Virus record (IMG/VR): IMGVR_UViG_2690316152_000014
Direction: 5' to 3' (one strand)
DNA length: 14,138 bases
From: a virus
Lineage: Duplodnaviria > Heunggongvirae > Uroviricota > Caudoviricetes
Below are positions 1 to 14,138 of the stretch, piece after piece. The translations under genes were made by a program, and so were the position numbers. The notes below the pieces were generated by a model. It did no database searches. It was not told where the DNA came from and saw only the letters and a program-made list of their open reading frames with translations. Every line of letters starts with the position of its first letter. The stretch's first letter is position 1.

Positions 1-387
1 ATGTTCAATATCATGATTCGTAAATTTGGTGAGATGACTTTCGAGAAAGCTGGTGTTGCTCGTACCGAAGAAGAAGCAATGGCCTTAGTTCTGGTAGCAC
101 TGAGATCATCACCTGAGATTATCGACGCTGAATATGTAGCCGCAGAAGGTGAGATTAAAGAGATTAAAGCGGTGGCTAAGGAATTAGGTGTTAAAGGTTT
201 CCGTAAGCTGAGATTGAATCGTGAGACTTATGTAATCGGTAAACAGGGGCAATATATGGATGAGAATAGCATAATTGTTCTACTGAATAAGATTACCCGC
301 TACGGTTGGAAGATTGAGCAATATAAAACGTGTTTCGAATTATACGAAAAAGGTTTGCTGGATACTCTGACCATCGTTCGCGCTTAA
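1..387 (+). CDS. hypothetical protein (128 aa); may be 5'-partial because the ORF begins at the window edge
   Basis: Open frame from position 1 to a TAA stop at 385-387, followed by a hairpin terminator. No motif recognised. Confidence 0.5.
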   Translation: MFNIMIRKFGEMTFEKAGVARTEEEAMALVLVALRSSPEIIDAEYVAAEGEIKEIKAVAKELGVKGFRKLRLNRETYVIGKQGQYMDENSIIVLLNKITRYGWKIEQYKTCFELYEKGLLDTLTIVRA

Positions 388-400
388 TTAATTTCTAATT

Positions 401-427
401 TGGTGGGTGCAATTCCCACCGCTTTTT
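401..427 (+). terminator. Rho-independent terminator candidate
   Basis: Stem GGTGGG/CCCACC with a 7-nt loop, followed by GCTTTTT, directly after the stop of the first ORF. Confidence 0.5.
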
Positions 428-445
428 AAACTAGGAGAATCAAAC

Positions 446-526
446 ATGTTAGCTTTTATCTCATTCGTGGGAGGTAGTCTCACAACTATGATTAGTCTTT
501 CTTATATTGTCGTTAGTATGGGGTGA
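446..526 (+). CDS. small hydrophobic peptide (26 aa, MLAFISFVGGSLTTMISLSYIVVSMG), not in the ORF track
   Basis: ATG at 446 preceded by AGGAG (433-437) at about 8 nt spacing. Entirely hydrophobic, consistent with a single transmembrane helix. TGA stop at 524-526. Confidence 0.3.
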   Translation: MLAFISFVGGSLTTMISLSYIVVSMG

Positions 527-529
527 GCA

Positions 530-655
530 ATGAAACAATTTCATGATGGCATTTCATCTAAGACATTCAAGAAAGAATATAGCGGCTTGCGTATTGACTG
601 GATGGATTTGATTGGCGCGGTTGTGTTTGGTCTGATTATTAGCATCAACTTTTAA
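530..655 (+). CDS. small membrane peptide (41 aa, MKQFHDGISSKTFKKEYSGLRIDWMDLIGAVVFGLIISINF), not in the ORF track
   Basis: ATG at 530 lies 3 nt after the stop of the preceding mini-ORF and is preceded by GGGGTGAG. Polar N-terminus and hydrophobic C-terminal helix. TAA at 653-655. Confidence 0.3.
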   Translation: MKQFHDGISSKTFKKEYSGLRIDWMDLIGAVVFGLIISINF

Positions 656-671
656 CGATATAAATATATCG
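656..671. promoter_or_regulatory. dyad-symmetric element CGATATA-AA-TATATCG containing TATAAATA; candidate operator or -10 region
   Basis: Inverted repeat with 7-bp arms read directly from the sequence, about 30 bp upstream of the ATG at 701. Confidence 0.3.
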
Positions 672-700
672 TAATTCAAACAACAAGAGGAAATTCTACT

Positions 701-1114
701 ATGAAAAAGATTATCGCTGGTATCGTTCTTGCTATGGGTTTGGTTGGTACTGCTAATGCTAATACCTATTATGTGTGTAATTCCTACTTCGAACATAAAG
801 GAGATGATACACGCTACCTGAGTGATGGCGACCGTTATTATCATGCACCGTCTGGAAAATACCGTGGTTTTATCGGTGTAAAGGTTCGAGTGAATGATGA
901 TAATAGTCAATTTGCTTTCAACGATCCGGTATTTGATAGAACAATCAAAAGCCCGAAACTGAAAGAAGATAAGAACGAGAAAGAAGAATATTATGGTTCC
1001 GAAGATGGTAAGTCTTACATCAAATATCTGCATTCTATAGATGGCGCTCCTATATTTGATGTTAAAAAAGGTGATACATCTTATACCCTGATTAGCTGCC
1101 GTGAAATTCTTTAA
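701..1114 (+). CDS. secreted/periplasmic protein of unknown function, with a cleavable signal peptide
   Basis: N-terminus MKKIIAGIVLAMGLVGTANA has an n-h-c signal-peptide layout and an A-N-A signal peptidase I site, with no lipobox. RBS AAGAGGA upstream. Two Cys in the mature part (CNSY and ISCREIL). Confidence 0.7.
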   Translation: MKKIIAGIVLAMGLVGTANANTYYVCNSYFEHKGDDTRYLSDGDRYYHAPSGKYRGFIGVKVRVNDDNSQFAFNDPVFDRTIKSPKLKEDKNEKEEYYGSEDGKSYIKYLHSIDGAPIFDVKKGDTSYTLISCREIL

Positions 1115-1129
1115 TCTTTAATCACCTAG

Positions 1130-1166
1130 CCCCTATCGTTATAATACACGGTAGGGGCGTTTTTGT
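1130..1166 (+). terminator. Rho-independent terminator candidate (loop holds a TATAAT hexamer)
   Basis: Stem CCCCTATCG/CGGTAGGGG (one G-U pair), 10-nt loop TTATAATACA, then CGTTTTTGTTT. Confidence 0.5.
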
Positions 1167-1177
1167 TTGGAAATGGT

Positions 1178-2860
1178 ATGAAAACTAAACTGTATTCGTA
1201 TATTCGCTTCTCTTCCATGAAGCAAGCAGATGGTAGTTCATTTGAACGCCAGAAGAGAACAGCGAAAGAGATAGCCGCAAAATATGATCTTGAGCTAGTT
1301 ACTTCCTATCAAGATTTCGGTGTATCTGCATTCAAAGGAGCTAACAGTAAAACAGGTGCATTATCTCGTTTTCTGGATGAGATTGGTCGATCCGTTCCGG
1401 TTGGTAGCTGGCTGGTGGTGGAAAACTTAGACCGTATCTCCCGTCAATCTGTTATTGAAGCTCAAGAGCTATTCCTTTCAATCATCCGCAGGGGAATAAC
1501 AATTGTTACTGGTATGGATGGGAAGGTCTATAGCAAAGAATCGGTTAATGCTAATCCCATCGATTTACTATTGAGTGTAATGTTGTTTGCTCGTGCAAAT
1601 GAGGAAAGTCAGACTAAACGCAATCGCACTAACTCAAGCGCACTACTCAAGGTTAAAGCCCATCAGGAGAATCCACAAAATCCGGCAGTGGCAATCGAGG
1701 AAATTGGTCGCAATATATGGTGGGCTGATACTTCATCGGGTTATGTGCTTCCACATCCGGTGTATTTTCCTGTTATCAAGAAAATCGTTGAATTAAAACA
1801 GAATGGTTATTCTAATGGTCGGGTTCTTGATTATCTGAATGAAAGAATCACCCCGCCTAATTACACAACGAACAAAGATACCCCTAAGAAATGGGCGCGT
1901 TCTATGTTAGCCAGGATGTTCTCTAACCGCGCTTTGCTTGGTATCAAAGAGATAACCATTGAAGGTGTGACATATGAGTTAAAGGATTATTACCCACGAG
2001 TGATGGAAGATGCCGAGTTCTATCAACTCAAGAAGACTATAGGACTGAGGTCGTTTTCTTATCCCACTAAGTCTAGTCCTGTTATTACCCTGTTAAGTGG
2101 TGCTGGCTTGCTTCGATGTGGTCATTGTGGGGCAAGTATGGTTAAGAGAAGCGGAGCATCAAAAGAGAGATTAGCCCAATATCGTTATATGTGCGATGGC
2201 GCAGATAGCAGGAGGACTAATTGTGATCATCCAAATTGGGGCTTTCGTGGTGATCAACTGGATAAGGCTGTATTGCAATTGCTGGCTGATAAAATCTGGA
2301 TTGCTGAGGATAAGGCTAATCCGATCCCAGGTATGCAAGCCCAGATTGAAGACATTTCACGCAAGATTGATAACCTGATTAGTCTTTCTGCAATGACAGG
2401 AGCAACGAAGGAACTAGCCGATCAGATTACTACCCTGAATCATGAGCGTGAGACCATCTATAACCAGATTAAGGTAATAGAAGAGAACATGTATTCAGTT
2501 GATTCTCAAGGCTGGGAGAAGCTAGCACAATTTGATTTAGAGGATGTTTGCAGCGAGGAACGGTTAAAAGTTCGATTGAAGATTAAAGAAGCTGTTAAGT
2601 CTATAAATTGTTACAAGATTGATACCAATTATAATCATTTTTTAATGGAGTACATCGACGGGAAGACACAAAGGATAGTGATCGAGAGGTCACGCCGTAA
2701 CAGGAAAGGGAGAATTTTTGTAGACGTGAAGACTATCAATGATAGGCAGATTCTGGAGAGCAACGGGCTTGTTCTGCATCCATGTTTAGACATGCTGACA
2801 GATAAGAACTGGAAACCGGAGGAAGAAATACCAGGTCCATTACAGGAATTTGGAATTTAA
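1178..2860 (+). CDS. large serine recombinase (probable phage integrase)
   Basis: N-terminal resolvase-type catalytic motifs: YIRFSSMKQ (catalytic Ser), SFERQ, and LVVENLDRISR. C-terminal zinc-ribbon cysteines (LLRCGHCG ... YMCDG ... NCDH) followed by coiled-coil-like sequence. Start set to the ATG at 1178; the track's 1163 is a TTG. Confidence 0.88.
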   Translation: MKTKLYSYIRFSSMKQADGSSFERQKRTAKEIAAKYDLELVTSYQDFGVSAFKGANSKTGALSRFLDEIGRSVPVGSWLVVENLDRISRQSVIEAQELFLSIIRRGITIVTGMDGKVYSKESVNANPIDLLLSVMLFARANEESQTKRNRTNSSALLKVKAHQENPQNPAVAIEEIGRNIWWADTSSGYVLPHPVYFPVIKKIVELKQNGYSNGRVLDYLNERITPPNYTTNKDTPKKWARSMLARMFSNRALLGIKEITIEGVTYELKDYYPRVMEDAEFYQLKKTIGLRSFSYPTKSSPVITLLSGAGLLRCGHCGASMVKRSGASKERLAQYRYMCDGADSRRTNCDHPNWGFRGDQLDKAVLQLLADKIWIAEDKANPIPGMQAQIEDISRKIDNLISLSAMTGATKELADQITTLNHERETIYNQIKVIEENMYSVDSQGWEKLAQFDLEDVCSEERLKVRLKIKEAVKSINCYKIDTNYNHFLMEYIDGKTQRIVIERSRRNRKGRIFVDVKTINDRQILESNGLVLHPCLDMLTDKNWKPEEEIPGPLQEFGI

Positions 2861-2929: not shown

Positions 2930-3925
2930 TTACGCGGCCTCTAAGGGGCTTAAATCAAGTTCTAGGTCTTCCGGTTCCAACTCGGCTAATGGCATTGAGT
3001 GCATCATAGCGAAATCACGTTCTATATCATCTTCGGTTATGTAGTCTTCTGGGTTGATTTCGAAATCAGCATCAAAATATATTGGTTCGGGCGAATTGTT
3101 ATAAATGTACTCCTGTATGAATTTTTTCACATCATCCATTTTGCTGATTGGTAAAGTTTCAGTATAACCACGAGACATTAATTTACGACTAATCCGCTTA
3201 CCTTTGATGTGTTTTTTGATGCCACTTTCTAAATCACCAGCTTTCCAGCCGCAATCAAACGTGTGTGAATATTCAAGGGATAATATTTCATCGGTGTATC
3301 TTTGAGTTTCATACATTCGACGTAGTGGATTTTTGCGCGTAGTTATACCAAATTTTAAAAATTTTTCTCCTACACGAAAAACATAAAAAATAACTGGTCG
3401 ATGTGTATCTTTGTTCATCAAAGCATGTTGTTTCCCGTTTGAAAGAGCAGTTATAGCGCCACGTATAAGAGGACAAGTTAAACTCCCCCGATTACGACTA
3501 CTAAACAAATCGGCTTTGTTGTATATTTTACCATGACAATTACATTTTAGTTTTAGATGGGTTGTTATTCCTCTGTATGGTTCGGCTAGCCCTAAAACAT
3601 CCCAGCCAATCTTATTAAAGAAATTGGTTGAAACTTGTATGTACTCATGTTCTGTATACATGCAAGGTTTCTTATATGTTGGGTGATGGTCTTTTCCTGT
3701 AAACTTACCCATTAAGACACGTTGTAATAAAGGAGTTTTAACTTTATCGCCAACTTTTATATAAACTTTTGTTCGCTGGAATGGCTTATGGATAGGTAGA
3801 ACGAATCCCCCATAAATCCATCCATTAGATTTACATTGGTCAACAACCATTGATTCATATTCAGATGGGCTTTTAGCCGTTGATTTTTTGATGAAAGGAA
3901 TATCTTTAGCAAAAACGGTTTTCAT
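2930..3925 (-). CDS. Cys-rich GIY-YIG-like (T5orf172-like) putative homing endonuclease, paralog A
   Basis: ATG at 3925 with GAGGA RBS. Segment VIFYVFRVGEKFLKFGITT resembles a GIY-x(10)-YIG signature. Cys/His clusters upstream (LKLKCNCHG, LTCPL). Acidic C-terminal tail. Clearly paralogous to the 5053-6090 protein (shared WIYGGFVLP/LIYHGFVMP, KFGIT/KYGIT, GYTET). Confidence 0.55.
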   Translation of the reverse strand: MKTVFAKDIPFIKKSTAKSPSEYESMVVDQCKSNGWIYGGFVLPIHKPFQRTKVYIKVGDKVKTPLLQRVLMGKFTGKDHHPTYKKPCMYTEHEYIQVSTNFFNKIGWDVLGLAEPYRGITTHLKLKCNCHGKIYNKADLFSSRNRGSLTCPLIRGAITALSNGKQHALMNKDTHRPVIFYVFRVGEKFLKFGITTRKNPLRRMYETQRYTDEILSLEYSHTFDCGWKAGDLESGIKKHIKGKRISRKLMSRGYTETLPISKMDDVKKFIQEYIYNNSPEPIYFDADFEINPEDYITEDDIERDFAMMHSMPLAELEPEDLELDLSPLEAA

Positions 3926-3996
3926 AATAGCGAATCCTCATAAATTAAATTCACTATTATTTATTAGTATTTTTCTTGATAATAAAGATTGTTATT

Positions 3997-4668
3997 ATGT
4001 GTGATATTAAAATTAGCTTCATCAATTATAGCCATGTGAAAATTGATTATTCTCCTTCCATTGCAATGGAATTGAGAGATTATTTTAGCTTTGAAGTGGA
4101 AGGAGCCAGATTTAGTCCCAGATACAAATATTCGGGCTGGGATGGTCGTATTAGACTTTTTACCTATGAAAATTTGATGCCTATTGGCTTAGTTCGAATG
4201 GTTAGCGTGTTTTCAAAAAATATGGGTTATAGTGTTTTGATAGACCCTAGACTTTTGGAGCGGGAAAATGTCGATGAAAAGGAAATCGAAAAATGGTGCA
4301 ATGTCCTAGAATTATATTCTGGTGCTAACAGAGTTACCCCGCACTGGTATCAATCAAAAGCAGTCTTTGAAGGTATTCATCATAAACGTAGAATGTTAGT
4401 TCTTCCTACGTCCGCTGGCAAATCTGCTATCGCTTGTATGTTATCTCGTTGGTACTTAGAGAACTACGAAGGCAAAGTGTTGATCATTGTCCCGACGACC
4501 TCGCTTGTTCTCCAGATGCGGGATGATTTTGTTGATTATCGCCAGTTTCCTTATGAAGCTATTCATACTATCATGAGCGGTACTAGTAAGCATGTAGGGG
4601 ATCGCCTGATTGTTGTCAGTACATGGCAATCCGCTTGTAAACAGCCTCGTGAATGGTTTAAACAATAA
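3997..4668 (+). CDS. uvsW: UvsW-like SF2 DNA helicase, N-terminal fragment (223 aa), stops just before motif II; likely a gene remnant
   Basis: Collinear with the T4 UvsW N-terminus as recalled from memory: N-terminal domain, PHWYQ, Walker A LPTSAGKS, YLENYEGKVLIIVPTT, and WQS..KQPREWF. The ORF stops immediately before the expected DECH box. Start set to ATG 3997 (the track's 3976 is TTG). Confidence 0.7.
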   Translation: MCDIKISFINYSHVKIDYSPSIAMELRDYFSFEVEGARFSPRYKYSGWDGRIRLFTYENLMPIGLVRMVSVFSKNMGYSVLIDPRLLERENVDEKEIEKWCNVLELYSGANRVTPHWYQSKAVFEGIHHKRRMLVLPTSAGKSAIACMLSRWYLENYEGKVLIIVPTTSLVLQMRDDFVDYRQFPYEAIHTIMSGTSKHVGDRLIVVSTWQSACKQPREWFKQ

Positions 4669-4697
4669 AAAAGCGCCTACTATGAGGCGCTTTAATT
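4669..4697. terminator. bidirectional hairpin terminator between convergent genes
   Basis: AAAAAAGCGCCT-ACTATG-AGGCGCTTTAATTTTA: GC-rich stem flanked by an A-run and a T-run, between the uvsW fragment stop and the peptidase stop. Confidence 0.55.
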
Positions 4698-5051
4698 TTA
4701 TCCATACCAGCGGGATTTAGTGGAACGGCTATCAATATGGGTAAAGGTTTTATATTTGCCTAAGCCATATTGATTAGGATATTTGCTATCTAGATACGCG
4801 TGAACAATATCAGGCGAGACACCTTTCACTACAATATCTGCGGCCTTGCCCGTGATATGAATCGAACGAGAAGCACCACCAACTTTCTTATTGTGTGCCG
4901 GACAACGGTTAGCACTGTTAATAACTACTGGTTTCCCGAAGTGTTCGCGTACATCCTCAAGAATTGCCAGTAATTCCGCGTCTACGGTATCTTGTCCGCA
5001 CTTTCCACATTTGCATTCAAATTCCTTGCGAGAAAAATGTTTGCTTAACAT
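4698..5051 (-). CDS. peptidase M15-family protein (zinc D-Ala-D-Ala carboxypeptidase-like); possible cell-wall hydrolase
   Basis: Motifs SANRCPAHNKKVGGASRSIH, GKAADI and FTHID fit the H...D...H zinc site of M15 peptidases. N-terminal CKCGKC cluster. Start is 1 nt after the stop of the upstream paralog-B gene, with a GGGGG SD. Confidence 0.6.
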   Translation of the reverse strand: MLSKHFSRKEFECKCGKCGQDTVDAELLAILEDVREHFGKPVVINSANRCPAHNKKVGGASRSIHITGKAADIVVKGVSPDIVHAYLDSKYPNQYGLGKYKTFTHIDSRSTKSRWYG

Positions 5052-5052
5052 A

Positions 5053-6090
5053 TTACCCCCTATATGTAATTTTATAGTTGTTGGAGTTTTTACAAAAATC
5101 CATTGCCATTTTTCTAATCTGCGCTTCTTTGGTTATGTCACATGTTTCTGTATATCCGTCTGGGATTAGTTCTTTTGGTGCAGCGTGACTTCCTATGTTA
5201 TGTTTTACGGAATATTCTAGGTCATTGGCAACTTTTCCGTCACCGAAAGTTATATACCACAATAACTTGTGAGATAATCCTGACTCTCTTGATTGTTGTG
5301 TGATTCTCTTTTGTGGGTTTAGGTGATTTGTTATTCCATATTTGATATAATCGCCTACTTGCTGGACATAGAAAACACCTGGTTTACTTTTGTTATACCC
5401 ACTCTTAGAACAGCACGGACAACCATCGTTTTCGTAAACCAAACCATACGCAACAATAGTATCTGATATATGGCCTTTTTCACACTTTAGTTTTAGTTTT
5501 GACATAGCCAAAATTGGGGATTTAGGTCGTTTTATTAATTTGAGTCTCTTTTCTTTGCACCCGTCTTCAATTAATCCCAACCATTCGTCGTCTGTGTGCT
5601 TTCTCTTATTAATTCCTCTCTTAATTGACCCACAATGACGGCACCCAGCATCATTGTTTATGATTCTTGTGATTATCGTTTCGTATGTGGTGTTACAACA
5701 AGTGCATTTATATGATGCCTTTGTATCAAGCCCTTTATATTCTTCCAACAAACCAACTAAAACCATCTCTTTACGTTCTAATACATTGCTTGCTTTGGTG
5801 AGAATGGTTTCTTCGTCTCTATTATTTTTCTTTGGTAGTTTTAAAGAATCTCTATAACATTCAATACAAGCACCTTGTTTCTTAAGGGATTTGAATACTA
5901 TCGTTCTTGATGTGTTGTGTTTTTTGCAAGTTACATAAACGTGTGTATATTGACCTTTCCACGGCATGACGAAGCCATGATAAATCAAACCTAATTCACC
6001 ACATCGTTTAATTGCAATTGTTTCATAGTCGTGCGGAGTTTTTCTTTTGAATCCGGTGTAATCGATATATTCAGCAAATAAAACTTCCAT
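5053..6090 (-). CDS. Cys-rich GIY-YIG-like (T5orf172-like) putative homing endonuclease, paralog B
   Basis: Three Cys-rich modules (KRCG..VTCKKH..CIEC; KCTCC..GCRHCG; LKCEKGH..GCPCC), then GVFYVQQVGDYIKYGIT (GIY-YIG-like) and DGYTET. GGGGGA SD upstream of ATG 6090. Confidence 0.55.
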   Translation of the reverse strand: MEVLFAEYIDYTGFKRKTPHDYETIAIKRCGELGLIYHGFVMPWKGQYTHVYVTCKKHNTSRTIVFKSLKKQGACIECYRDSLKLPKKNNRDEETILTKASNVLERKEMVLVGLLEEYKGLDTKASYKCTCCNTTYETIITRIINNDAGCRHCGSIKRGINKRKHTDDEWLGLIEDGCKEKRLKLIKRPKSPILAMSKLKLKCEKGHISDTIVAYGLVYENDGCPCCSKSGYNKSKPGVFYVQQVGDYIKYGITNHLNPQKRITQQSRESGLSHKLLWYITFGDGKVANDLEYSVKHNIGSHAAPKELIPDGYTETCDITKEAQIRKMAMDFCKNSNNYKITYRG

Positions 6091-14018: not shown

Positions 14019-14138
14019 TGAACCGCCCCGGGAATCCTGGAGACTAAACTCCCTGAGAAAGAGGTAAACAGGATGACTAAAAATACACGTTTTTCCCCCG
14101 AGGTCCGTCAACGGGCAGTTCGTATGGTTCTGGAAAGT
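14019..14138 (+). mobile_element. IS3-family insertion sequence (IS629/IS1203/IS3411-like), left end; continues past the window
   Basis: Starts with TG: TGAACCGCCCCGGGAATCCTGGAGACTAAACTCCCTGAGAAAGAGGTAAACAGG, then an ATG encoding MTKNTRFSPEVRQRAVRMVLES. I recognise this as the IS629-group left inverted repeat and OrfA N-terminus. Confidence 0.8.
14073..14138 (+). CDS. IS3-family transposase OrfA, N-terminal 22 codons (partial)
   Basis: ATG at 14073 preceded by GAGG. Translation MTKNTRFSPEVRQRAVRMVLES is typical of the helix-turn-helix OrfA N-terminus of IS3-family elements. Confidence 0.8.
   Translation, partial: MTKNTRFSPEVRQRAVRMVLES

What the first reader, a model, noticed from the sequence alone, without database searches (positions are those of the whole stretch)
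3997..4668. UvsW-like helicase cut off immediately before motif II
The 223-aa product aligns with the T4 UvsW N-terminus through Walker A (LPTSAGKS) and motif Ia, then stops at KQPREWFKQ, exactly where homologs continue into the DECH box. A bidirectional terminator and opposite-strand genes follow, so no downstream ORF can supply the rest of the helicase. This is either a decaying remnant or a retained N-terminal DNA-binding fragment, possibly displaced by the flanking endonuclease-like genes.
Basis: partly seen in the sequence, partly recalled or inferred. Interest (0 to 1): 0.6.

Follow-up and report, generated by a model that had tools for sequence, protein, structure and literature searches.

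The report
Broken uvsW helicase gene in prophage
This is the dead front half of a T4-type UvsW helicase gene in an E. coli prophage, ordinary in itself, but it sits in a nuclease-flanked spot that has clearly swapped DNA with virulent T4-like (Krischvirus) phages.

Summary
Window 3997-4668 encodes 223 aa: the UvsW N-terminal domain, Walker A and motif Ia. It stops about 7 codons before the DExH box, at a bidirectional terminator, and no C-terminal half lies in the window.

The window is the integrase end of an E. coli temperate prophage. Related prophages carry an intact 496-aa uvsW at the same locus (17 complete E. coli genomes, 11 IMG/VR prophages). The window allele is therefore a 3' deletion. 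It joins uvsW nt 667 to the A-run of the terminator, and this join creates the TAA stop. Other relatives are broken elsewhere (aa 119, about 160, 192, 219, 365, an IS1 insertion), so the gene decays repeatedly. Nothing is inserted at the junction, so the flanking endonuclease-like genes did not displace it.

The context is more interesting. uvsW is flanked by CapR/T5orf172-type homing-endonuclease-like genes. The prophage alleles are mosaics with Krischvirus uvsW: window nt 298-667 is 92% identical, and relatives reach 96-98%. T4-like phages also carry a split intein at uvsW motif II, 26 nt from the break.

Best reading: an inactive remnant (about 0.72). A retained dominant-negative or bait function is not excluded (about 0.1).

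The parts
3997..4668 (+). Truncated uvsW (uvsW'), 223 codons plus stop. It holds the UvsW N-terminal domain, Walker A and motif Ia. Motifs II-VI are absent.
3997..4293 (+). 5' segment of uvsW' (gene nt 1-297) from an unsampled uvsW lineage. It is only about 61-68% identical to every sampled allele.
4294..4663 (+). Krischvirus-like tract (gene nt 298-667). There are 30 mismatches in 370 nt against contig L022 (91.9% identity) and identity to Krischvirus E26 is about 88.6%. Almost all differences are synonymous (dN/dS 0.068).
4663..4669 (+). Deletion junction. The T at 4663... of the Phe224 codon (TTC in L022) is joined to the A-run at the foot of the terminator, which creates the TAA stop at 4666-4668. 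About 820 nt of uvsW are missing relative to L001.
4670..4693 (.). Bidirectional intrinsic terminator. It is shared with relatives that have a whole uvsW (L001) or none (L002), and it also ends the minus-strand late operon.
3926..3996 (.). 71-bp region upstream of uvsW'. No sigma-70 consensus match was found. The small upstream endonuclease gene that overlaps the uvsW start in L001 and L011 is absent here.
2930..3925 (-). 331-aa homing-endonuclease-like gene (phrog_681, weak CapR match). Its best phage homologue is the gene lying between uvsW and uvsW.1 in Krischvirus Whisky and JK32.
5053..6090 (-). 345-aa homing-endonuclease-like gene (phrog_681 E 1e-42; CapR E 4e-7). It is present in L002 and absent in L001 and L011. 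Its best phage homologues are in Krischvirus.
4698..5051 (-). Peptidase M15 (D-Ala-D-Ala carboxypeptidase type) endolysin, a conserved backbone gene of the prophage.
1163..2860 (+). Large serine recombinase, the prophage integrase. Relatives are integrated in hicB, beside codA/codB, or near csgG.
14019..14138 (+). Left end of IS629 inserted in the tape-measure gene. It is absent from the otherwise identical copies L006 and L007.

Best explanation
The ORF is an inactive 3'-truncated remnant of a full-length uvsW helicase gene. That gene is optional cargo of a homing-endonuclease-rich variable region at the integrase end of a family of temperate siphovirus-like prophages of E. coli, Shigella and Salmonella.

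Shown: a deletion removed the gene from codon 224, seven codons before the DExH box, through its last codon. It joined uvsW nt 667 to the A-run at the base of the late-operon terminator, and that join made a TAA stop by chance.

From established SF2 helicase knowledge: the product lacks motif II (Walker B), motif III and the whole second RecA-like domain. It therefore cannot hydrolyse ATP or unwind DNA.

Shown: before the deletion the allele was a working gene. It had acquired its 3' part by recombination with a Krischvirus-type (T4-like) uvsW.

Inferred, not shown: the break may have started as a double-strand cut by a homing or intein endonuclease that targets the motif II coding site. Alternatively it may be an ordinary hairpin- and A-run-associated deletion.
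For: 1. Intact 496-497-aa uvsW sits at the same place, between the recombinase and the M15 endolysin, in L001, in 11 IMG/VR prophages and in 17 of 5426 complete E. coli genomes. Those 17 genomes hold both halves of the gene, and one is IS1-interrupted.
2. The window aligns with L001 up to uvsW nt about 670 and resumes at the L001 uvsW stop codon and terminator. The window is identical to L022 through ...AAACAAT and then runs into AAAAAAGCGCC.
3. No C-terminal half exists in the window or in about 10 kb on either side.
4. Other prophage alleles are broken at other positions. These include a frameshift at aa 119, a replacement by a T5orf172 gene at about aa 160, an ORF holding only the C-terminal 305 aa, and cuts at aa 219 and aa 365.
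5. In the sister truncation (L011 type) the junction is a slipping poly-A run. It gives four different out-of-frame tails of 228, 229, 251 and 252 aa, so the C-terminus is not under selection.
6. Among 150 representatives of homologues, lengths cluster at 475-520 aa with no peak near 223.
7. All copies of the window allele are about 100% identical over 14 kb, so this is a young clone.
8. In this isolate the prophage also carries IS629 in its tape-measure gene.
9. No consensus promoter lies upstream, and the translationally coupled upstream gene seen in L001 is gone.
Against: The retained 669 nt have no frameshift or internal stop. Their divergence from the nearest intact allele is almost purely synonymous (dN/dS 0.068, against 0.04-0.08 between intact Krischvirus genes). 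Decay is therefore not visible inside the fragment, though this is also expected if the deletion is recent.

Two lineages, the window type and the L011 type, are cut within 10 nt of each other on the left and 3 nt on the right. The L011 type has spread in E. coli and Shigella sonnei. This could reflect a site-specific process or selection for this particular fragment.

The intact parental allele with the same 5' 297 nt was not found. Only about 34 kb around the gene was checked for the missing half, not the whole genome.
Confidence: 0.72

Rival explanations
1. The fragment is kept because it works. One version is a DNA-binding, ATPase-dead UvsW N-terminal protein that interferes with recombination-dependent replication of infecting Krischvirus/T4-like phages as a dominant negative or decoy. 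Another version is a stretch of homology that draws phage uvsW into recombination and copies the stop and terminator into phage genomes.
For: The ORF is open and shows purifying-type divergence. Two similar truncations retain the same part of the protein. The tracts that are 92-98% identical to Krischvirus prove that this locus does recombine with those phages. The region between integrase and lysis genes is variable, like a moron or defence hotspot. Loss of UvsW is known to change T-even replication mode (Shedu escape, PMC13434031).
Against: The cut falls in the middle of the first RecA-like domain, not at a domain boundary. The C-terminal tails of the sister allele vary by frameshift. Other relatives keep the opposite half or break elsewhere. 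There is no promoter match and no PADLOC family beyond generic helicase similarity. The allele is a young clone, and intact alleles are the common state.
Confidence: 0.1
2. The truncation is the scar of a homing or intein endonuclease attack. A T4-like phage that carries the uvsW motif II split intein with its free-standing endonuclease, or another endonuclease of the locus, cut the prophage uvsW at or near the motif II coding site. The break was then repaired by end joining to the A-run of the terminator. This concerns the origin of the deletion and is compatible with the best explanation.
For: uvsW is a known homing target. T4 SegE lies between inh and uvsW and cuts uvsW (PMC2988022). A split intein with an intervening endonuclease gene sits at DE|C of motif II in L043, in a Krischvirus-type extein on a 170-kb contig (P0182, P0187) and in Salmonella phages S16 and STP4-a and Proteus phage PM2. 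That site lies 26 and 36 nt downstream of the two truncation points. Homing-endonuclease genes flank uvsW in Krischvirus G5211, Whisky and JK32. The Krischvirus-like tract runs right up to the junction in both truncated alleles.
Against: No cleavage site is known for any of these enzymes on this DNA. The deletion is very asymmetric, about 30 nt on one side of motif II and about 800 nt on the other. Hairpins and A-runs are ordinary deletion hotspots and could explain the shared right end without any nuclease.
Confidence: 0.2
3. It is one half of a naturally split (fractured) helicase. The other half is encoded elsewhere and joined by a split intein or by subunit association.
For: Fractured uvsW genes do exist in T4-like phages. 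L043 has an N-half with an N-intein, then an endonuclease gene, then a C-intein with the C-half. L042 and a set of roughly 250-aa N-halves share a conserved tail.
Against: The window ORF has no intein or conserved tail, and it ends in a stop made by the junction. No C-half lies within about 10 kb either side. Its closest relatives are single 496-500-aa genes.
Confidence: 0.02

Closest known systems
Bacteriophage T4 UvsW (SF2 branch-migration and RNA-DNA helicase; PDB 1RIF, 2OCA) and its Krischvirus orthologues (RB49, JSE, E26)
   Same: Homologous over residues 1-223, covering the N-terminal domain, Walker A and motif Ia. The fragment is 83% identical in protein to JSE UvsW. Over the second half it is 88-92% identical in DNA to Krischvirus-type genes.
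   Different: Motifs II-VI and the second RecA-like domain are missing. The gene lies in a temperate prophage beside a serine integrase, not in the hoc-inh-uvsW-uvsW.1-uvsY block of T4-like genomes.
HEG islands and nuclease genes at the boundaries of genetic exchange (Barth, Dunham and Seed 2023, PMC10448857); T4 SegE homing into uvsW (Kadyrov 1997, cited in PMC2988022)
   Same: A cargo gene is bracketed by CapR/T5orf172-type endonuclease-like genes. There are sharp breakpoints between about 65% and 92-98% nucleotide identity to an otherwise unrelated phage. uvsW is a documented homing target.
   Different: Here the partners are a temperate prophage and virulent T4-like phages. The papers I read do not describe such a pairing (one search finds no mention of uvsW, prophage or temperate). 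No endonuclease activity has been shown for these proteins.
Fractured genes with split inteins and an intervening endonuclease gene
   Same: uvsW of T4-like phages is interrupted at motif II, a few codons from where the window ORF ends.
   Different: The window has no intein, no intervening endonuclease gene at the break and no C-terminal half.
Ordinary prophage pseudogenes and deletion remnants
   Same: A single deletion, a stop codon made by the junction, sister alleles broken by a frameshift, an IS element or replacement, and an IS629 in the tape-measure gene of the same prophage.
   Different: The remnant is still an uninterrupted ORF. A second lineage carries a near-identical breakpoint.

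Membership tests
UvsW-type SF2 helicase (functional member) | UvsW N-terminal domain (PF21241) | tested here: met
   aa 3-83, E 1.2e-33, full profile length
UvsW-type SF2 helicase (functional member) | Motif I (Walker A) and motif Ia | tested here: met
   LPTSAGKS and IIVPTTSL align with T4 UvsW residues in 1RIF (alignment)
UvsW-type SF2 helicase (functional member) | Motif II DExH (Walker B) and motif III | tested here: not met
   The ORF stops at EWFKQ. Relatives continue with xGMxIVDE(S/C)H...MTGS.
UvsW-type SF2 helicase (functional member) | Second RecA-like domain (Helicase_C, motifs IV-VI) | tested here: not met
   tblastn with residues 224-500 finds nothing in the window or in L006-L010
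HEG island (cargo flanked by homing-endonuclease genes, exchanged between phages) | Endonuclease-family genes on both sides of the cargo | tested here: met
   The 331-aa and 345-aa proteins match phrog_681 'endonuclease' (E 5e-19 and 1e-42). CapR matches at E 4e-7 for the 345-aa protein and weakly for the 331-aa protein.
HEG island (cargo flanked by homing-endonuclease genes, exchanged between phages) | High nucleotide identity to an otherwise unrelated phage, confined to the island and bounded by sharp breakpoints | tested here: met
   Only 4216-4666 of the 14-kb window matches Krischvirus. Breakpoints lie at uvsW nt 297 (window), nt 180 (L011) and nt 804 (L001), with p from 1e-22 to 5e-50.
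HEG island (cargo flanked by homing-endonuclease genes, exchanged between phages) | Site-specific cleavage and homing by the flanking nucleases | not testable with these tools
   This needs enzyme assays or co-infection crosses. The Pfam T5orf172 catalytic domain was not detected in the two window proteins at E up to 5, only in relatives.
Fractured gene with split intein | N-intein after the N-extein, and a C-intein plus C-extein gene nearby | tested here: not met
   There are no Hint or intein domains in the ORF and no C-half. Contrast L043.
Known anti-phage defence systems (PADLOC-DB 2.0) | Match of the ORF or its neighbours to a defence-system model | tested here: not met
   Only generic helicase-core similarity was found (PbeA, HamB, E 1e-5 to 5e-4). 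The seven neighbouring proteins match nothing.

The most novel reading that the evidence does not exclude
The uvsW region of this prophage family may be a working interface with virulent Krischvirus phages. Homing endonucleases from both partners would cut and convert each other's uvsW. The truncated allele would then not be junk but an anti-phage device. It could act as an ATPase-dead UvsW N-terminal protein that poisons T4-like recombination-dependent replication. It could also act as a recombination trap that copies a stop codon and terminator into the phage's uvsW.
Probability: 0.08. Interest if true: 0.7.

Novelty: new member of a known kind. Interest (0 to 1): 0.3.

Why it matters
The truncated gene itself matters little. 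It should be treated as a pseudogene rather than annotated as a 'DEAD/DEAH box helicase family protein'.

The context is worth a note. A temperate E. coli prophage family carries a T4-type uvsW flanked by homing-endonuclease-like genes. It shows sharp-edged tracts 92-98% identical to virulent Krischvirus phages. This is direct sequence evidence of recent recombination between a temperate phage and T4-like lytic phages, centred on a gene already known as a homing target. Krischvirus phages are candidates for phage therapy and are reported to transduce well (PMC12115623). A resident prophage locus that exchanges DNA with them is therefore of practical interest.

Tried and rejected
- The scan of one genome per species (genome contigs) with a UvsW N-terminal alignment found no relative.
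- The intact parental allele was sought in IMG/VR and JGI metagenomes with an exact 22-mer and with a degenerate pattern from the allele-specific 5' part. This gave nothing except one chance match, L046, which is unrelated by blastn and tblastn.
- The search for homologous proteins returned only short proteins or proteins cut by contig ends. It omitted the known 500-aa Krischvirus proteins, so its length list could not be used as a sample. The representative search replaced it.
- The idea that uvsW_1/uvsW_2 annotations in Krischvirus Brandy mean a gene split at motif II was rejected. They are the ordinary uvsW and uvsW.1.
- A T4 late-promoter (TATAAATA) or sigma-70 promoter upstream of the ORF was looked for by eye and by scan. 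None was found.
- A simple direct-repeat origin of the deletion was considered, using AAACAAT, which also occurs near the 3' end of L001 uvsW. It was rejected because the predicted product does not match the window junction.
- Structure prediction was not run. A confident model of a truncated domain would not test whether the fragment is stable.

Full report
**1. The observation**

Window 3997-4668 is an ORF of 223 codons that ends in TAA at 4666-4668.
- Pfam finds a complete UvsW N-terminal domain (aa 3-83, E 1.2e-33). It finds only the first two thirds of the ResIII/DEAD ATPase core (aa 118-216).
- The protein aligns with T4 UvsW (PDB 1RIF, 2OCA) over residues 2-225 at E about 1e-80 and stops at EWFKQ.
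- Intact relatives continue with (Y/F)GMxIVDE(S/C)H, which is motif II.
- A hairpin at 4670-4693 scores as a terminator on both strands (dG -14.1 kcal/mol, z -3.8).
- The next two genes are on the minus strand.
- tblastn with two full-length UvsW proteins finds residues 1-223 only. This holds in the window and in longer copies of the locus that reach about 10 kb to either side.
- The identical protein lies on 12 contigs from several samples in the same context. Those contigs are about 100% identical to the window over 14 kb.

**2. What the window is**

The window is the integrase-proximal end of a temperate prophage of E. coli.
- It holds a large serine recombinase (1163-2860), an M15 endolysin (4698-5051, minus strand) and tail genes up to a tape-measure gene.
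- Relatives about 85-90% identical are integrated in hicB, beside codA/codB, or near csgG in E. coli, Shigella and Salmonella-like genomes.
- The stretch between the recombinase and the endolysin varies from one relative to the next. Of the 30 best E. coli matches, only 3 list a helicase there.

**3. The intact gene exists at the same locus**

- E. coli L3Cip3 (L001) has a 496-aa uvsW with a DESH box and a complete C-terminal domain between the recombinase and the endolysin.
- Seventeen of 5426 complete E. coli genomes hold a homologue. The same 17 hold both halves, and one is interrupted by IS1.
- Eleven IMG/VR prophage contigs hold uninterrupted 496-497-aa genes.
- Among the 150 best representatives of homologues in 1.8 billion proteins, lengths cluster at 475-520 aa with no peak near 223.

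The short form is therefore derived and is not a family of its own.

**4. The lesion**

- Against L001, the window aligns up to uvsW nt about 670 and resumes at the L001 stop codon and terminator. About 820 nt are missing.
- Against the closest intact allele (L022), the window is identical through ...GAATGGTTTAAACAAT. There L022 continues TCGGG (Phe224...), whereas the window continues AAAAAAGCGCC, the A-run at the foot of the hairpin.
- The stop codon is thus T from the Phe codon plus AA from the terminator. It was made by the junction.
- Nothing is inserted at the break.
- The same right flank (TAACAAAAAAGCGCC...) adjoins the whole gene in L001 and also adjoins the uvsW-less relative L002.

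**5. Other broken alleles**

- A second truncated type (L011, from E. coli and Shigella sonnei) joins uvsW nt 657 to the same A-run. Its junction slips, giving tails of four different frames and lengths (228, 229, 251 and 252 aa). Some of these read through the terminator into antisense endolysin sequence.
- Salmonella-like relatives (L016, L017) end at about aa 160 and are followed by a 197-aa T5orf172 gene.
- Further E. coli alleles have a frameshift at aa 119, a cut at aa 365, or only the C-terminal 305 aa.
- In the window's own isolate, IS629 sits in the tape-measure gene (window 14019-14138). It is absent from the otherwise identical copies L006 and L007.

Together these show repeated loss of a dispensable gene in a decaying element.

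**6. Could the fragment still work?**

By established knowledge of SF2 helicases, a protein without Walker B, motif III and the second RecA-like domain cannot hydrolyse ATP or translocate. The cut lies inside the first RecA-like domain, not at the boundary of the N-terminal DNA-binding domain.

Some evidence points the other way.
- The fragment has no internal defect.
- Its divergence from L022 over nt 300-666 is nearly all synonymous (dN/dS 0.068). That is the same as between intact Krischvirus genes (0.04-0.08).
- This fits a recent deletion in a gene that was functional until then. It cannot exclude continuing selection.
- The only variants seen after the truncation are two amino-acid changes, Y18C and P20S.

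Other checks gave no support for a function.
- No sigma-70 consensus lies in the 71 bp upstream.
- The small upstream gene whose stop overlaps the uvsW start in L001 and L011 is missing here.
- PADLOC gives only generic helicase similarity.

I put the remnant reading at about 0.72 and a retained function at about 0.1.

**7. The context: endonuclease genes**

- The two 'endonuclease-like' neighbours (2930-3925 and 5053-6090, both minus strand) and their counterparts in relatives all match phrog_681 'endonuclease'. They carry CapR homology domains, and in relatives also T5orf172/GIY-YIG-like domains.
- Their best phage homologues are in Krischvirus, at 26-38% identity.
- In Krischvirus Whisky and JK32, a 361-aa gene of this family lies between uvsW and uvsW.1.
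- In Krischvirus G5211, a SegE-like GIY-YIG gene lies directly upstream of uvsW. This matches T4, where SegE lies between inh and uvsW and cuts uvsW (PMC2988022).

**8. The context: mosaicism with Krischvirus**

Only 4216-4666 of the 14-kb window matches Krischvirus genomes by megablast. The breakpoints are sharp.

| Comparison | Outside the tract | Inside the tract | p |
|---|---|---|---|
| Window vs L022, break at nt 297 | 117/297 mismatches | 30/370 mismatches | 1.6e-22 |
| L011 vs Whisky, break at nt 180 | 65/180 mismatches | 20/477 mismatches | 2e-24 |
| L001 vs E26, tract nt 804-1368 | 254/804 mismatches | 13/564 mismatches, with runs of 140-160 identical bases | 5e-50 |

- Krischvirus isolates themselves differ in the uvsW 5' part, and some resemble the prophage alleles there.
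- This is the pattern described as HEG islands (PMC10448857). Here the partners are a temperate prophage and virulent T4-like phages, a pairing that paper does not mention.
- Krischvirus phages lack most of the genes for non-canonical bases and are reported to transduce efficiently (PMC12115623). By inference, that makes such exchange easier.

**9. Why the break is just before motif II**

uvsW motif II is a homing site for a split intein that has an endonuclease gene between the two gene halves.
- It is seen in a T4-like contig, L043.
- It is seen with a Krischvirus-type extein on a 170-kb contig (P0182, P0187...VVDE|CFDGDTLIK).
- It is seen in Salmonella phages S16 and STP4-a and in Proteus phage PM2.

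That site is 26 and 36 nt downstream of the two truncation points. A cut there, followed by end joining to the A-run, would explain the position. An ordinary deletion between A-rich sequence and the foot of a hairpin would explain it equally well. I treat the endonuclease origin as an inference, at about 0.2. It would be compatible with the remnant reading.

**10. Verdict**

In kind it is a new member of known things, namely a prophage pseudogene inside a homing-endonuclease island. Interest is modest. The part worth following is the prophage-Krischvirus exchange at uvsW.

Noticed in passing
window 14019-14138: The last 120 bases are the left end of IS629, 100% identical to copies in Stx phages that are annotated as IS629 OrfA. 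It is inserted in the prophage tape-measure gene. The otherwise identical contigs L006 and L007 lack it. This element explains the thousands of E. coli and Stx-phage hits obtained with the whole window.
   Followed up: yes
L043 4001-6849; proteins P0182/P0187; Salmonella phages S16 and STP4-a, Proteus phage PM2: uvsW of several T4-like phages is a fractured gene. The order is N-half with an N-intein ending at motif II DE|C, a free-standing 306-aa endonuclease-like gene (phrog_22417/15427), then a C-intein with the C-half. One such allele has a Krischvirus-type extein on a 170-kb contig.
   Followed up: partly
L042 4001-6501; proteins P0014, P0030, P0085, P0095, P0127, P0152, P0159: Diverse, probably environmental T4-like phages have uvsW N-halves of about 250 aa. 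These end near aa 200 and share a conserved tail of about 50 aa (…KVKLxNGxxxxxKDLKxxDDID…) with no initial Cys. An unknown ORF and a Helicase_C ORF follow. This looks like a second, non-canonical kind of split uvsW.
   Followed up: no
L011 8655-8680 and cluster members P0174-P0186: The junction of the second truncated allele is a poly-A run whose length varies between isolates. The tail of the ORF therefore changes frame, giving products of 228, 229, 251 and 252 aa.
   Followed up: partly
L001 7278-7835; L011 7432-8001: In relatives, a small 185-189-aa CapR plus T5orf172-like gene sits directly upstream of uvsW, and its stop overlaps the uvsW start. This is the same position as segE in T4 and as the GIY-YIG gene in Krischvirus G5211 (L045 2265-2996). 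It is absent in the window.
   Followed up: partly
window 1-2860 and loci L001, L002, L006, L007, L011, L016, L017: Members of this prophage family, with serine recombinases about 83-85% identical in DNA, are integrated at different chromosomal sites: inside hicB, next to a shortened codB and codA, and next to the csgG/ycdZ region. This suggests integrase alleles with different target genes.
   Followed up: no
window 5053-6090 versus L001 and L011: The 345-aa endonuclease-like gene between the endolysin and the next late gene is present in the window and L002 and absent in L001 and L011. Endonuclease genes therefore also come and go inside the late operon.
   Followed up: no
Krischvirus uvsW 5' region: Krischvirus isolates carry different uvsW 5' alleles. 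G2248, FL15 and GEC-3S match the 5' part of L011, and G5211 and AV108 match that of L001, where most isolates do not. Allele exchange at this gene therefore also occurs within the genus and possibly in both directions with prophages.
   Followed up: partly
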